Assembly: GCA_030066265.1 (NCBI GenBank)
Contig: JASJCF010000005.1
Span: 414-64,413 of the forward strand
Source: Acidimicrobiia bacterium
Lineage (GTDB): Bacteria > Actinomycetota > Acidimicrobiia > Spongiisociales > UBA5794
DNA length: 64,000 nt
Direction: 5' to 3'
The first letter of the stretch is position 1; each line of letters begins with the position of its first letter. Below are positions 6,973 through 46,457 of this stretch, in pieces. The notes under the pieces were generated by a model that worked only from the letters and a program-made list of their open reading frames with translations, did no database searches and was not told the origin of the DNA. The position numbers and the translations under genes were made by a program.

Positions 6973-7986
6973 CTAGTTGTCGGCCCCGCGGTCTTCACCC
7001 CGTCGCGACCACGAGGGCCGATTCTCATCGACCGCCTTCTGGTCCACCGACTCCTCGTCCACCGATCCGGGGGCCTCCGAGCCCGAGCCTGCCGCCGTGG
7101 GACCGTCGTCGGTGTCCTCGCTCGCGTCGTCCTCCGGGAACGTGTTGGCGGGCTGGGGCGAGAAGAGCGTTGGCTTGCCAACGAGAGTGCGGCGCTCTCC
7201 CCGGCGTTGGGTGTAGATGACCCAGGCGACGCCACCGATGAACGCTGCGATCGACACCCAGCCGTTTCGGCTCAACCCGAGGAAACGGAAGGTCGTGTCG
7301 GTGCGCAACAGCTCCATCAGGAAACGGATGAAGGCGTACATGGCCACGTAGATGCCGAACGAGGCTCCTTTGGCCAGCTTGCCGTAGCGCTCCAGCACCA
7401 AGATGGTCGGCACGAGGATCAGCGCGTTCCAGATCGCCTCGTAGGCGAACGTGGGATGGAAGGTCTCGAACTCGCGGTAGGCCTCGGGACGACGGGCCGG
7501 ATCGATGATGATCGCCCAGGGAAGGTCACTCGGGGTTCCGAAGAGCTCCTGGTTGAAGTAATTCCCGAAGCGCCCGATCGCCTGCGCAAGCGGCACACCG
7601 ACGGCGACGGCGTCCCCGATGGCGAACAGATCGCCATTCCATCGGTTGACCATCCAAATCAGTGCGATTGCACCGAACAGCAGGCCGCCATAGAGAGCGA
7701 GCCCGCCCTCCCAGATGAACAGGACGGCCCACGGCCGACCTTCGAAACGAGCGGTATGAGTGATGACGTACGCGGCGCGGGCACCGAGGAACCCGATGAC
7801 GATGGCCCAGATCGCCACTCGCTCGAAGAGCTCGGAGCTCCCCCCGAATCGGATGTATCGCTGCCGAGAGACGATGATCGCAACGATCACGCCCACTGCG
7901 ATGAGGATCCCGTAGAAGTGGATCGTCAACGGGCCCAGTTCGAGAACGTTCTGGGCAGGGGAAGGGATCGCTGCGACGGGCATCAT
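6973..7986 (-). CDS. lgt: Prolipoprotein diacylglyceryl transferase
   Basis: LGPLTIHFYGILIAVG...GGLALYGGL...GRFGNYFNQELFG...HPTFAYEAIWN are typical Lgt motifs. Start set at ATGATG 7986, where ATGA overlaps the stop of the upstream gene. There is a long acidic low-complexity C-terminal tail. Confidence 0.9.
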   Translation of the reverse strand: MMPVAAIPSPAQNVLELGPLTIHFYGILIAVGVIVAIIVSRQRYIRFGGSSELFERVAIWAIVIGFLGARAAYVITHTARFEGRPWAVLFIWEGGLALYGGLLFGAIALIWMVNRWNGDLFAIGDAVAVGVPLAQAIGRFGNYFNQELFGTPSDLPWAIIIDPARRPEAYREFETFHPTFAYEAIWNALILVPTILVLERYGKLAKGASFGIYVAMYAFIRFLMELLRTDTTFRFLGLSRNGWVSIAAFIGGVAWVIYTQRRGERRTLVGKPTLFSPQPANTFPEDDASEDTDDGPTAAGSGSEAPGSVDEESVDQKAVDENRPSWSRRGEDRGADN

Positions 7987-43775: not shown

Positions 43776-43967
43776 CTACTCCTCGCTGGTGAGAACGCCG
43801 CGCAGGCGCGGGTACCGCACCGGACGATGGGTGTGGCAGAACTCTGCCCGGTTGTATCGCGACAACTGCGTCGTGCACTCGGCGTGTGCGCAGGTCCGGT
43901 CCTCGTCGTAGGTCTTGGGACGACGAGAGCGGCCCTTGGGCCGCGATGCCTTGAGGATGTCAGACAT
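43776..43967 (-). CDS. Small conserved-looking Cys/His protein (63 aa)
   Basis: MSDILKASRPKGRSRRPKTYDEDRTCAHAECTTQLSRYNRAEFCHTHRP... has a C.H..C....C.H pattern. It lies immediately downstream of lnt on the same strand. Confidence 0.55.
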   Translation of the reverse strand: MSDILKASRPKGRSRRPKTYDEDRTCAHAECTTQLSRYNRAEFCHTHRPVRYPRLRGVLTSEE

Positions 43968-44071: not shown

Positions 44072-45583
44072 CTACCCCGAAGGTGCAAAACCATTCGAAG
44101 CTCCGCGGCCGCCAACGGCCGTCTTGTCGCGCTCGGAACTGCGGCTGACCACCACGGCGGCGAGGGCGGCAGCCATGGCGAGGAAGGCCAGCCAGTCTCC
44201 AAATCGGGCCCACAGCGTCGGGCCATCAGTGTTGAACCGCATGGTTCCGTAGAGCACCCGTTCTTCGAGCTGATCGGTGGTCTCACCGACGGTTCCGTCA
44301 GCGCCGATGAACGTGGACTTCCCGGTGATCGAGGCATACGCCGTGTCCAGTCCGATCGCCGCAGCGTTGACACGAACCATGCCGATCGCCTGATCCGTTG
44401 CGGGCGATCGACCATACGACGACGTGTTGGTGGTGACCACCATCATCTCCGCCCCAGCATTCGCCGTGGACCTGACCGAGCGTGCGAACGATCCCTCGAA
44501 CGAGATGACCGAGCCCAACGCACCCTCGCTGGTCGGGAAGACGACCGCTTCGGTGCCTCGGATCATGTCTCGGGGGACCCGGTCGAGCTGAGGGACGAAG
44601 TCGAACAGGCCCCGAAGCGGGACGAACTCTCCGAAGGGAACCGGATGCCGCTTGAGGTACTCACCAACCTTGACGCCATCGGGCGAATACAGGATGTTCA
44701 CGTTGAAGAAGTTGTCGTCTCCCTCGACCCGCGTGCCGGAGATGAGGATGTAGGCATCGAGGCGTCTCGCCTGCTCGATGATCGCCTGGAAGACCTCATC
44801 GTTGTTCTCGGGTTCGTACGGCGTGCCCGTCGAGTTCTCCGGCCAGATCACGAAGTCCACCGAACCGGCGGGGATGCCCTGCGTGAGCTCGAGATGTTGC
44901 TCGAAGATGCGCTGATTCTCGTTCTGGCACCGGGTCATCGGGCACGGTGAACCTCCCTGGACGATCGCCGACCTCCACACCTGCCCCGCCGGCGACGGAG
45001 CGAGGAAGAACCCGGCGATCGACAGCAGGATGATCACGCTGCCTGCATCGACGACCATCCGCCAGTCCTTGTGATGCTCGATCACCAGTGTCACCCCCGC
45101 CGCAAAGGCGACGACGAGCACCGTCCATCCCGCAGGTCCGATCCATTGCACGGAGCCGATAGGACCGGGGAGGCCCGCTGCGGGGTATCCGATATCGCCC
45201 CACGGAAAACCACCGAAGGGGAATCGGCCACGAATGAACTCCATGGCGACCCATCCCCCGACGGCGATCAGCCACCAGCGCCACGGCGTCCACAGACGGA
45301 AGACCCAGATCACCGCCACGTACAACGCGGTGAACGACCCCATGACGATGGAGAGAGGGAACCACGCAACGAATCCGAGCACCATCAACCAGTTGAGGAG
45401 CAGACCGAAGAACGCAGCCCCCCAGAAGAACCCGAGCGCAACGGCGTATGCGGCGCGTTCGACCATCCGTATGCCGATGAAGAGCGGCACCGGCGCGACG
45501 AAGGCGAGGGCTCCGAACCCGACAGGCGGGAACGCTGCCCACATCAGGACGGCGCTCGCTGCGACCAAGGCGAACGGGATCAT
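44072..45583 (-). CDS. lnt: Apolipoprotein N-acyltransferase homologue (nucleophile position is Ser)
   Basis: Polytopic N-terminus plus a CN-hydrolase domain. FVIWPENS, YLKRHPVPFGEFVPL and GSVISFEG align by eye to E. coli IIWPESA (E267), YNKNHLVPFGEFVPL (K335) and AAICYEI (C387). Confidence 0.85.
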   Translation of the reverse strand: MIPFALVAASAVLMWAAFPPVGFGALAFVAPVPLFIGIRMVERAAYAVALGFFWGAAFFGLLLNWLMVLGFVAWFPLSIVMGSFTALYVAVIWVFRLWTPWRWWLIAVGGWVAMEFIRGRFPFGGFPWGDIGYPAAGLPGPIGSVQWIGPAGWTVLVVAFAAGVTLVIEHHKDWRMVVDAGSVIILLSIAGFFLAPSPAGQVWRSAIVQGGSPCPMTRCQNENQRIFEQHLELTQGIPAGSVDFVIWPENSTGTPYEPENNDEVFQAIIEQARRLDAYILISGTRVEGDDNFFNVNILYSPDGVKVGEYLKRHPVPFGEFVPLRGLFDFVPQLDRVPRDMIRGTEAVVFPTSEGALGSVISFEGSFARSVRSTANAGAEMMVVTTNTSSYGRSPATDQAIGMVRVNAAAIGLDTAYASITGKSTFIGADGTVGETTDQLEERVLYGTMRFNTDGPTLWARFGDWLAFLAMAAALAAVVVSRSSERDKTAVGGRGASNGFAPSG

Positions 45584-45665: not shown

Positions 45666-46457
45666 ATGGACGACCTGCACCTTGCGATCGAAGCGGCACG
45701 AGCAGGTGGGGCGGTGGTATCCCGGTTCTTCGGATCGCCTCCCGACCCGGAGTACAAGGGGAAATTCGACCCGGTCACCGTGGTCGACCGCGCAGCCGAG
45801 GAGGCGATCATCAGCCTCATCCGAAAGGAGCGGCCCGACGACGCCATCCTGGCCGAGGAGGCGGGTGGCACGGTCTCGGACGGACGGCAGTGGATCATCG
45901 ATCCCCTCGACGGGACCGTCAACTTCGTTCACTCGATCCCACACGTATCGGTGAGCATCGCCCTGTACGAGGGGCCCAGAGCTCTGGTCGGGGTTGTCCT
46001 CGATCCGCTCCGCGACGAGCTGTTCAGCGCTGCCGCCGACGAAGGTGCACGACTCAACGGTCACGTCATCTCGGTCTCCGCCGAGCATGACCTCGAACGC
46101 TCCGTGGTGGCCACGGGATTTCCCTACGACCACGATCAGCACGCGGACGATCTCGCCGTCGTGCTTCGCGAGATGCTCCGACGCGTCAACGGCATTCGGA
46201 GGCTCGGTTCGGCGGCTCTCGACCTCGCGTGGGTGGCGGCGGGCCGATACGAGGCGTACTGGGAGCTGGGCATCGCCCCGTGGGATGGTGCTGCGGGGAT
46301 GATGCTCGTCCGCGAAGCAGGAGGTCGGGTGACCGATCCCTACGGCCGGGATTCCACGCCGCACAACGGCCTCGTGGTCGCCTCCAACGGCGTCGTCCAC
46401 GACGAGTTCCGCGGCGTGGTCGAATCCTGGATGCCGATGCGCCTCGTCGATCCGTGA
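45666..46457 (+). CDS. Inositol monophosphatase family protein
   Basis: ILAEEAGG...WIIDPLDGTVNFVH...ATGFPY...WDGAAG. Confidence 0.9.
   Translation: MDDLHLAIEAARAGGAVVSRFFGSPPDPEYKGKFDPVTVVDRAAEEAIISLIRKERPDDAILAEEAGGTVSDGRQWIIDPLDGTVNFVHSIPHVSVSIALYEGPRALVGVVLDPLRDELFSAAADEGARLNGHVISVSAEHDLERSVVATGFPYDHDQHADDLAVVLREMLRRVNGIRRLGSAALDLAWVAAGRYEAYWELGIAPWDGAAGMMLVREAGGRVTDPYGRDSTPHNGLVVASNGVVHDEFRGVVESWMPMRLVDP

What the first reader, a model, noticed from the sequence alone, without database searches (positions are those of the whole stretch)
44072..45583. Apolipoprotein N-acyltransferase homologue with Ser instead of the catalytic Cys
The CN-hydrolase domain aligns unambiguously by eye with E. 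coli Lnt around all three catalytic-triad positions:
- FVIWPENS versus IIWPESA (Glu)
- YLKRHPVPFGEFVPL versus YNKNHLVPFGEFVPL (Lys)
- GSVISFEG versus AAICYEI (Cys387)

The nucleophile codon is TCG (Ser); I checked atc tcg ttc gag on the reverse strand. In E. coli the Cys forms the thioester acyl-enzyme and is essential.

A Glu-Lys-Ser version could be an oxyester-forming variant, an inactive paralogue, or a TGC to TCG assembly or sequencing artefact. lgt is also in this window, so lipoprotein maturation is clearly operating.
Basis: partly seen in the sequence, partly recalled or inferred. Interest (0 to 1): 0.6.

Follow-up and report, generated by a model that had tools for sequence, protein, structure and literature searches.

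The report
Natural serine-nucleophile Lnt acyltransferase
This marine-sediment actinobacterium's only lipoprotein N-acyltransferase (Lnt) really does carry serine where the enzyme family's "essential" catalytic cysteine sits. The same holds across a large, strongly conserved clade, which points to a working oxygen-nucleophile version of the enzyme, although no activity has been measured.

Summary
Window 44072..45583(-) encodes a full-length 503-aa Lnt: TIGR00546 187 bits against a cut-off of 132.9, LNT_N plus CN_hydrolase, and an AF2 model matching E. coli Lnt at TM about 0.8. Codon 361 (TCG, 44501..44503) aligns with E. coli Cys387.

It is not an artefact. Contigs from two other studies and a second NCBI assembly carry the same codon, and all 120 closest homologues (57-100% identity) have Ser.

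It is not a spare paralogue. It is the only Lnt in a genome that also has lgt, lspA and dozens of lipobox proteins.

Evidence that the protein is maintained as an enzyme:
- Nearly every family of its order has Ser at this site.
- Glu249, Lys311, Glu319 and Glu363 are invariant across three Ser clades.
- dN/dS is 0.05-0.36, similar to Cys-type Lnt.
- The site uses TCN, AGY and TGY codons, with at least 8 codon-family switches and never Thr. Ser and Cys therefore seem to interconvert.

A Ser-type Lnt paralogue, BCG_2279c, was noted in mycobacteria in 2013 and was inactive on four lipoproteins. A corynebacterial Ser paralogue, probably the same kind, falls in a different clade from the window protein.

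Best reading: an active O-acyl-enzyme Lnt. This is unproven, because E. coli C387S is inactive. I class it as a new variant of a known kind.

The parts
44072..45583 (-). lnt: 503-aa apolipoprotein N-acyltransferase homologue with a Glu-Lys-Ser site
   Evidence: TIGR00546 187 bits against a cut-off of 132.9. Pfam LNT_N 10-162 plus CN_hydrolase 206-451. AF2 pLDDT 86, pTM 0.87. Foldseek top 24 hits are all Lnt, TM about 0.75-0.80.
44501..44503 (-). Codon 361, TCG = Ser, at the position of the E. coli Cys387 nucleophile
   Evidence: It lies at the junction of strand 355-360 and helix 361-364 in the model. There is no variant in contigs of two other studies.
44837..44839 (-). Codon 249, GAG = Glu, equivalent to E. 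coli Glu267 (general base)
   Evidence: Invariant in Ser-type and Cys-type Lnt.
44651..44653 (-). Codon 311, AAG = Lys, equivalent to E. coli Lys335
   Evidence: Invariant.
44627..44629 (-). Codon 319, GAG = Glu, equivalent to E. coli Glu343, in the VPFGE motif
   Evidence: Invariant.
44495..44497 (-). Codon 363, GAG = Glu, equivalent to E. coli Glu389
   Evidence: Invariant in the Ser-type alignment.
44927..44944 (-). C214-P-M-T-R-C219: the CPxxxC loop specific to the window's clade. These are the only two cysteines of the protein, and the loop takes the place of the E. coli Trp237 loop.
   Evidence: Invariant in the 56-sequence alignment. Cys is present in 93% and 80% of clade A, and the pair is kept in the clade's Cys-nucleophile members. 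pLDDT is below 50 at residues 215-218.
6973..7986 (-). lgt, prolipoprotein diacylglyceryl transferase: the first step of the same pathway
   Evidence: TIGR00544 167 bits against a cut-off of 118.9, at G000:C8:7611-8381 = window 7198-7968. ORF boundaries.
45666..46457 (+). Divergently transcribed inositol-monophosphatase-family gene, a conserved neighbour of Ser-type lnt
   Evidence: PF00459. Its best NCBIfam match is inositol-1-monophosphatase, below the cut-off. tblastn finds it beside lnt in more than 40 loci of the order.
43776..43967 (-). 63-aa Cys/His-rich protein directly downstream of lnt, function unknown
   Evidence: It is a called gene in the second assembly. It is conserved next to lnt in the closest genomes. 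It has no Pfam or NCBIfam match.

Best explanation
This is the organism's single, orthologous Lnt, and the nucleophile has been replaced by serine during evolution.

Proposed mechanism, inferred by analogy with E. coli Lnt:
1. Glu249 deprotonates Ser361.
2. Ser361 attacks the sn-1 ester of a membrane phospholipid.
3. Lys311 and Glu319 stabilise the tetrahedral intermediate.
4. An O-acyl-serine (oxyester) enzyme forms and the lysolipid leaves.
5. The alpha-amino group of the diacylglyceryl-cysteine of a lipoprotein made by Lgt and LspA attacks the oxyester, giving a triacylated lipoprotein.

Shown here: the Ser is real. It is fixed and under selection across a large clade, together with the rest of the catalytic site. 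The gene is the only Lnt in the genome. Ser and Cys have replaced each other repeatedly in Lnt evolution.

Inferred, not shown: that Ser is catalytically competent, that the acceptor is still lipoprotein, and that the selective reason is resistance of an extracytoplasmic nucleophile to oxidation.
For: Family and fold:
- Full-length Lnt by family model and fold.

Distribution of Ser:
- All 120 nearest homologues have Ser.
- So do 52 of 151 sequences (the query plus 150 representatives clustered at 50% identity).
- So do 67 of 111 Lnt genes read from a sample of 151 Acidimicrobiia genomes.
- Every sampled family of the window's order has Ser except one.

Sole copy within a complete pathway:
- Sole Lnt in the own genome, which is 91% complete.
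- Sole Lnt in a closed genome, OZ241842.1, and in single-contig genomes such as G023, G014 and G095.
- lgt, lspA and dozens of LAAC-type lipobox ORFs are present.

Conservation and selection:
- Across three Ser clades with 27-57% identity, the 16 invariant columns include E249, K311, E319, S361 and E363.
- dN/dS is 0.05-0.36, against 0.09-0.18 in Cys-type pairs.
- The one sequence with Gly at the site (P0127) has also lost the VPFGE motif, which shows what a decaying copy looks like.

Codon evidence:
- In 110 genes the site reads TCN 60, AGY 6 and TGY 44, with no Thr. The tree needs at least 8 codon-family changes.
- TCN and AGY are two substitutions apart, and Cys (TGY) is a one-step intermediate between them.
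- A TGC member is sister to an AGC member (L108 and L109). The TGC trio is sister to a TCC member (L062).

Other points:
- Trees need at least 4-6 Cys/Ser changes.
- The cytoplasmic CN-hydrolases of the same genome keep Cys.
- E. coli C387S does form the O-acyl intermediate, so step 1 is chemically feasible with Ser (PMC6828757).
Against: - E. coli Lnt C387S forms the acyl-enzyme but cannot pass the acyl group to the apolipoprotein (PMC6828757; PMC3850990).
- The only Ser-type homologue tested genetically, M. bovis BCG_2279c, did not restore N-acylation of four lipoproteins in a BCG_2070c deletion mutant (PMC3850990).
- No compensating active-site change shared by all Ser clades was found.
- There is no biochemical, lipidomic or transcript evidence for this protein, and no RNA run holds the gene.
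- Lnt is dispensable in monoderm bacteria, so being the sole copy does not force it to be an Lnt by function.
Confidence: 0.58

Rival explanations
1. A neofunctionalised Lnt-fold enzyme. The Glu-Lys-Ser site is active, but it transfers the acyl chain to water (phospholipase A1-like) or to an acceptor other than the lipoprotein N-terminus, such as an inositol lipid, a lipoglycan or another envelope molecule. Lipoproteins in these organisms would then stay diacylated.
For: - E. coli C387S performs only the first half-reaction.
- BCG_2279c does not N-acylate four tested lipoproteins.
- In Corynebacterium sp. L4757, and in two Acidimicrobiia genomes (G123, G128), a Ser-type copy coexists with a Cys-type Lnt. 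That is what one expects for a distinct function.
- The Trp237 loop, essential in E. coli, is replaced by a CPxxxC loop.
- An inositol-monophosphatase-family gene is a conserved divergent neighbour.
Against: - The coexisting paralogues belong to a different Ser clade (B). The window's clade A behaves as the single-copy orthologue.
- Repeated Ser/Cys toggling inside otherwise uniform clades suggests one function served by either nucleophile.
- The protein scores above the curated equivalog cut-off for Lnt.
- The Lgt and LspA pathway and its substrates are present.
Confidence: 0.28
2. A catalytically dead pseudo-enzyme retained for a structural, scaffolding or lipid-binding role.
For: The canonical nucleophile is missing, and the equivalent laboratory mutation inactivates E. 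coli Lnt.
Against: - Glu, Lys and both further Glu residues are invariant, and Ser itself is invariant, across clades down to 27% identity. A dead site should drift, as in P0127.
- Only Ser or Cys ever occupy the site, never Ala, Thr or Asn.
- dN/dS is like that of Cys-type enzymes.
Confidence: 0.08
3. A sequencing, assembly or binning artefact (TGC misread as TCG), or a relocated cysteine acting as the real nucleophile.
For: TCG is one substitution from TGC. The protein has two invariant cysteines in a loop that in E. coli borders the active site.
Against: - The same codon is in an independent NCBI assembly and in contigs from two other studies.
- Ser at this site is spelled with six different codons in relatives.
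- The CPxxxC pair is also kept in the clade's Cys-nucleophile members.
- The other Ser clade has no conserved Cys, and many of its members have no Cys at all.
Confidence: 0.02

Closest known systems
Apolipoprotein N-acyltransferase Lnt of E. coli and P. aeruginosa (PDB 5N6H, 5N6M, 8B0K-P; TIGR00546)
   Same: The same two-domain architecture, with an N-terminal helical membrane bundle, a periplasm-side nitrilase fold and a C-terminal helix. TM-score is about 0.8 over about 510 columns. The equivalents of Glu267, Lys335, Glu343 and Glu389 are conserved. The genome context includes Lgt and LspA.
   Different: The nucleophile is Ser, not Cys387. The Trp237 loop is replaced by a CPxxxC loop. Tyr388 is Phe. 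Sequence identity is only about 22%. The host is a monoderm actinobacterium with no Lol pathway requirement.
E. coli Lnt C387S laboratory mutant (PDB 5VRH, 8B0M)
   Same: It has the same Glu-Lys-Ser arrangement, and it is the top Foldseek hit. It shows that a Ser at this site can be acylated by phospholipid (PMC6828757).
   Different: The mutant is blocked in the second half-reaction and does not support growth. The natural protein has been fixed by selection in a whole clade as the only Lnt.
M. bovis BCG_2279c / M. tuberculosis Rv2262c-Rv2261c, an Lnt homologue with Ser at position 387 (PMC3850990)
   Same: A natural Lnt homologue with the Cys387 position occupied by Ser and with Glu and Lys retained.
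   Different: It is a second paralogue beside a functional Cys-type Lnt, and it did not N-acylate four lipoproteins. The corynebacterial Ser paralogue examined here falls in Ser clade B, sister to the Actinomycetes Cys-type Lnt. The window's protein belongs to a separate Ser clade A and is the sole copy.
Cys-type Lnt of Actinomycetes (Streptomyces, Kribbella, Nocardioides, Microbacterium; M. smegmatis MSMEG_3860 and C. glutamicum Ppm2 by literature)
   Same: The same phylum, the same architecture, the VPFGEY motif and Phe after the nucleophile.
   Different: All named Actinomycetes sequences read here keep Cys (VICFEVAYD). There is no ppm1 fusion or adjacency at the window locus.

Membership tests
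Apolipoprotein N-acyltransferase (Lnt, TIGR00546 equivalog) | Whole-protein score above the curated cut-off of the equivalog model | tested here: met
   187 bits against a cut-off of 132.9; 191 bits in the genome search.
Apolipoprotein N-acyltransferase (Lnt, TIGR00546 equivalog) | LNT_N membrane domain followed by a CN-hydrolase domain, with an overall fold like the solved Lnt structures | tested here: met
   PF20154 10-162 plus PF00795 206-451. AF2 pLDDT 86, with helices through residue 193 and at 464-478. Foldseek TM 0.75-0.80 to 24 Lnt chains.
Apolipoprotein N-acyltransferase (Lnt, TIGR00546 equivalog) | Glu-Lys-Cys catalytic triad (E. coli E267, K335, C387) | tested here: not met
   Glu249 and Lys311 are present, but the Cys position is Ser361 (TCG).
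Apolipoprotein N-acyltransferase (Lnt, TIGR00546 equivalog) | The other residues essential in E. coli (W237, E343, Y388, E389) | tested here: inconclusive
   E343 and E389 are conserved as E319 and E363. Y388 is Phe, as in most Cys-type actinobacterial Lnt. The W237 loop is replaced.
Apolipoprotein N-acyltransferase (Lnt, TIGR00546 equivalog) | Transfer of an acyl chain from phospholipid to the alpha-amino group of diacylglyceryl-cysteine | not testable with these tools
   There are no biochemical data. The pathway partners Lgt and LspA and lipobox substrates are present.
Nitrilase / CN-hydrolase superfamily | Alpha-beta-beta-alpha fold with a cysteine nucleophile at the strand-helix elbow | tested here: not met
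   The fold is met. The elbow residue is Ser. The two cytoplasmic superfamily members of the same genome keep Cys.
BCG_2279c-type Ser paralogue of Mycobacteriales (Ser clade B) | Groups with the Ser paralogues that coexist with a Cys-type Lnt; signature K-V-R-R-VPFGEY ... ISWEVFF | tested here: not met
   The window protein lies in clade A. The Corynebacterium Ser paralogue and the Ilumatobacteraceae sequences lie in clade B (support 100), which is sister to the Actinomycetes Cys clade. The window genome has no second Lnt.

The most novel reading that the evidence does not exclude
Lnt is a nitrilase-fold enzyme whose nucleophile can be either Cys or Ser. Whole lineages of Acidimicrobiia would then run lipoprotein N-acylation through an O-acyl-serine intermediate on a Glu-Lys-Ser(+Glu) site. 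The residue has toggled between Ser and Cys many times through single-nucleotide steps (TCN <-> TGY <-> AGY). This would be the first natural serine-nucleophile branch of the nitrilase superfamily. It would also show that the inactivity of E. coli C387S depends on context and is not intrinsic to the chemistry.
Probability: 0.5. Interest if true: 0.8.

Novelty: new variant of a known kind. Interest (0 to 1): 0.62.

Why it matters
In every mechanistic paper and review I read, Cys387 is treated as the indispensable nucleophile of Lnt, and thiol-directed inhibition is used as a tool.

A clade-wide, sole-copy Glu-Lys-Ser Lnt gives a natural system for three questions:
- How can a nitrilase-fold active site drive aminolysis of an oxyester?
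- Which second-shell changes rescue the half-reaction that is dead in E. coli C387S?
- Is avoidance of an exposed extracytoplasmic thiol selected in some environments?

It also bears on how lipoproteins of abundant marine and freshwater Acidimicrobiia are lipidated. It warns against calling Lnt function, or loss of function, from the triad alone. Finally, it puts the unexplained mycobacterial Ser paralogue into an evolutionary frame.

Tried and rejected
- **Artefact:** rejected.
- **Second hidden Lnt in the genome:** none found. The two weak hits are a soluble CN-hydrolase and NadE.
- **Relocated cysteine nucleophile (C214/C219):** rejected. The pair persists in the clade's Cys-type members, and clade B proteins have no conserved Cys, often none at all. 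I could not measure the distance from the loop to Ser361, because model coordinates are not exposed and the loop has low confidence.
- **A universal compensating substitution shared by all Ser clades:** none found. Candidates such as G364, T420 and position 387 track clades, not the nucleophile.
- **Proof of a Ser-to-Cys reversal:** the Cys trio (family f6) is nested inside Ser clade A in both trees. However, a post hoc AU test does not reject Ser monophyly (p = 0.33). The f6 locus also lacks the IMPase neighbour, so the direction of change there stays open.
- **Transcript evidence:** no RNA run holds the gene.
- **Taxon names for the other Ser clades:** the cluster look-up returned none.
- **Literature:** searches for natural Ser-type Lnt or Ser-nucleophile nitrilase-superfamily members found only the 2013 BCG paper.

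Full report
**1. Observation**

The ORF at window 44072..45583 on the minus strand encodes 503 aa. It matches Pfam LNT_N (residues 10-162) and CN_hydrolase (206-451). It also matches the NCBIfam equivalog TIGR00546 'lnt' at 187 bits, against a cut-off of 132.9.

phmmer against all PDB chains finds only Lnt of E. coli and P. aeruginosa (E about 1e-23). It aligns WPE-N with IIWPE-S (Glu267), KRHPVPFGEFVPL with KNHLVPFGEFVPL (Lys335, Glu343), and VISFEG with AICYEI (Cys387, Glu389). The codon is TCG at 44501..44503.

**2. Not an artefact**

- An identical protein is encoded on a 7.7-kb contig of another NCBI assembly.
- Logan contigs from two different studies of marine-sediment metagenomes cover the codon without a difference, while differing at seven other sites in the 301-bp stretch. 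These are assemblers' contigs, not raw reads.
- All 120 nearest homologues (57-100% identity) have Ser at this column.

**3. How far Ser reaches**

Among the query plus the 150 best representatives at 50% clustering, the column reads 93 Cys, 52 Ser, 1 Gly and 5 gaps from fragments.

I searched 151 genomes of the window's class with TIGR00546 (141 had a match) and read 111 Lnt genes. Of these, 67 have Ser and 44 have Cys.

In the window's own order, every sampled family has Ser (VISFEG-type) except one (f6: G078, G126), which has Cys. The roughly 1-Mb genomes of family f11, in a different order, also have Ser.

A FastTree of 241 sequences and IQ-TREE subsets show three Ser groups:
- **Clade A** holds the window's protein. 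It has 73 rows: 69 Ser, a nested trio of Cys, and one degenerate Gly sequence.
- **Clade B** has the signature K-V-R-R-VPFGEY ... ISWEVFF. It contains Ilumatobacteraceae and other Acidimicrobiales plus one nested Cys member. It is sister (support 97-98) to the all-Cys Lnt of Actinomycetes (Streptomyces, Kitasatospora, Kribbella, Nocardioides, Microbacterium).
- **Clade C** is a small group inside a Cys-dominated clade.

The trees need at least 4-6 Cys/Ser changes.

**4. Sole copy in a complete pathway**

The own genome (2.35 Mb, 91% complete) has one Lnt. The two other CN-hydrolase hits are a soluble 280-aa enzyme and the glutaminase domain of NadE. Both keep their Cys nucleophile (GVYICYD and GISICED).

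lspA is on another contig. A lipobox scan finds 100 candidates, most of the first 80 printed being convincing signal peptides of the ...LVAAAC(S/G)SD type.

Most same-order genomes, including single-contig ones, have one Lnt match, and it is Ser-type. A closed 3.0-Mb chromosome, Candidatus Spongiisociaceae OZ241842.1, has a Ser-type clade-A Lnt as its only Lnt.

**5. Signs of function**

- An alignment of 33 Ser-type proteins from all three clades (27-57% identity to the window's) has only 16 invariant columns. Among them are W247, E249, K311, the VPFGE motif with E319, S361 and E363.
- Pairwise dN/dS within Ser clades is 0.05-0.36, against 0.09-0.18 in Cys-type pairs. Many dS values are near saturation, so these figures are rough.
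- The single Gly sequence (P0127) has also lost the VPFGE motif. That is what decay looks like.
- The AF2 model (pLDDT 86, pTM 0.87) puts Ser361 at the junction of strand 355-360 and helix 361-364, and it superposes on Lnt structures at TM 0.75-0.80.

**6. Codon evidence**

At this site, 110 genomic genes use TCN (60), AGY (6) and TGY (44), and Thr never appears. The tree needs at least 8 changes among these three codon families.

TCN and AGY serine codons are two substitutions apart, and the one-step intermediates are Cys (TGY) or Thr (ACN). Cys is seen nested in both Ser clades: the TGC trio is next to a TCC member, and TGC L108 is sister to AGC L109. Thr is never seen. I therefore infer that lineages pass between Ser and Cys. 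That is hard to reconcile with only one of the two residues being functional.

Caveat: an AU test chosen after seeing the tree does not reject a tree with all clade-A Ser sequences together (p = 0.33). So I cannot say whether family f6 reverted to Cys or kept it. If the GTDB ranks are taken at face value, clade A needs at least two changes either way.

**7. What is known**

- E. coli C387S forms an O-acyl intermediate but cannot transfer the acyl chain to the apolipoprotein (PMC6828757).
- Bruelle et al. 2013 (PMC3850990) noted that M. bovis BCG_2279c (M. tuberculosis Rv2262c/2261c) has Ser at position 387. It does not N-acylate four lipoproteins when the Cys-type BCG_2070c is deleted.
- Here, Corynebacterium sp. 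L4757 carries both a Cys-type Lnt, which falls in the Actinomycetes clade, and a Ser-type paralogue, which falls in clade B. I infer, without having its sequence, that BCG_2279c is of clade-B type.
- The window's clade A is a separate origin of Ser and acts as the single-copy orthologue.
- Reviews and structural papers treat Cys387 as the nucleophile and describe no natural Ser enzymes. Five further literature searches found nothing more.

**8. Mechanism**

I commit to a ping-pong acyl transfer through an O-acyl-Ser361 intermediate. Glu249 acts as the base, and Lys311 and Glu319 provide stabilisation. The most likely acceptor is still the lipoprotein N-terminus.

The first half-reaction has direct precedent in C387S. 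The second half-reaction is the uncertain step. From general knowledge, aminolysis of O-acyl-serine enzymes is ordinary chemistry in other families, such as transpeptidases and mycolyltransferases.

A possible selective reason, by inference only, is that an exposed extracytoplasmic thiol is vulnerable to oxidation or mis-pairing. Two facts fit this: the cytoplasmic CN-hydrolases of the same genome keep Cys, and clade A carries a conserved CPxxxC pair that probably forms a disulfide.

The main rival is a changed acceptor or a hydrolase function. It fits the BCG result and the coexisting paralogues of clade B.

**9. Earlier notes of this scan**

Notes on other genomes describe the same phenomenon. 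I reached them after my own analysis. They agree with it but are not independent evidence.

**10. Verdict**

This is a real, selected, clade-wide serine replacement of the Lnt nucleophile in the sole Lnt of the organism. It is a new variant of a known enzyme kind, and its activity is untested.

Noticed in passing
window 45666-46457 (+) with 44072-45583 (-): An inositol-monophosphatase-family gene is divergently paired with Ser-type lnt in more than 40 loci across the families of the order. It is not found at the Cys-type f6 locus or at the family f11 loci. This could hint at co-regulation or a link to inositol-lipid metabolism.
   Followed up: partly
window 43776-43967 (-): A 63-aa basic protein with a C-x4-C ... 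C-x-H pattern (CAHAEC...CHTH) lies directly downstream of lnt. It is conserved there in the closest genomes (48-95% identity) and has no Pfam or NCBIfam match.
   Followed up: partly
window 44927-44944 (-); protein residues 214-219: A CPxxxC motif is invariant in the window's Lnt clade and replaces the loop that carries the essential Trp237 in E. coli. It holds the only two cysteines of the protein and is probably a disulfide. The AF2 model has low confidence here.
   Followed up: partly
L050 (G062:C7:17000-21200): One same-order genome has two tandem Ser-type lnt genes. The second copy is more diverged (VLSYEATVDR).
   Followed up: no
P0127 (representative protein, 489 aa): A clade-A Lnt homologue with Gly at the nucleophile position and an eroded VPFGE motif (AEPFIER). 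It is apparently a decaying copy and serves as a useful contrast to the conserved Ser-type genes.
   Followed up: no
L004, L005, L197 (G004, G123, G153): A deep-branching Cys-type Lnt group (DKMRLVPFGEY ... LVCFESAFPD) sits in open frames of 951-1406 aa, which suggests fusion to another large domain. It coexists with Ser-type Lnt in G123 and G153.
   Followed up: no
L205 8458-9357 (G078) and L114 6636-7589: A DUF4349 gene lies directly upstream of the Cys-type lnt of family f6, and 2.8 kb from lnt at the window's locus. This is a remnant of shared neighbourhood despite rearrangement.
   Followed up: partly
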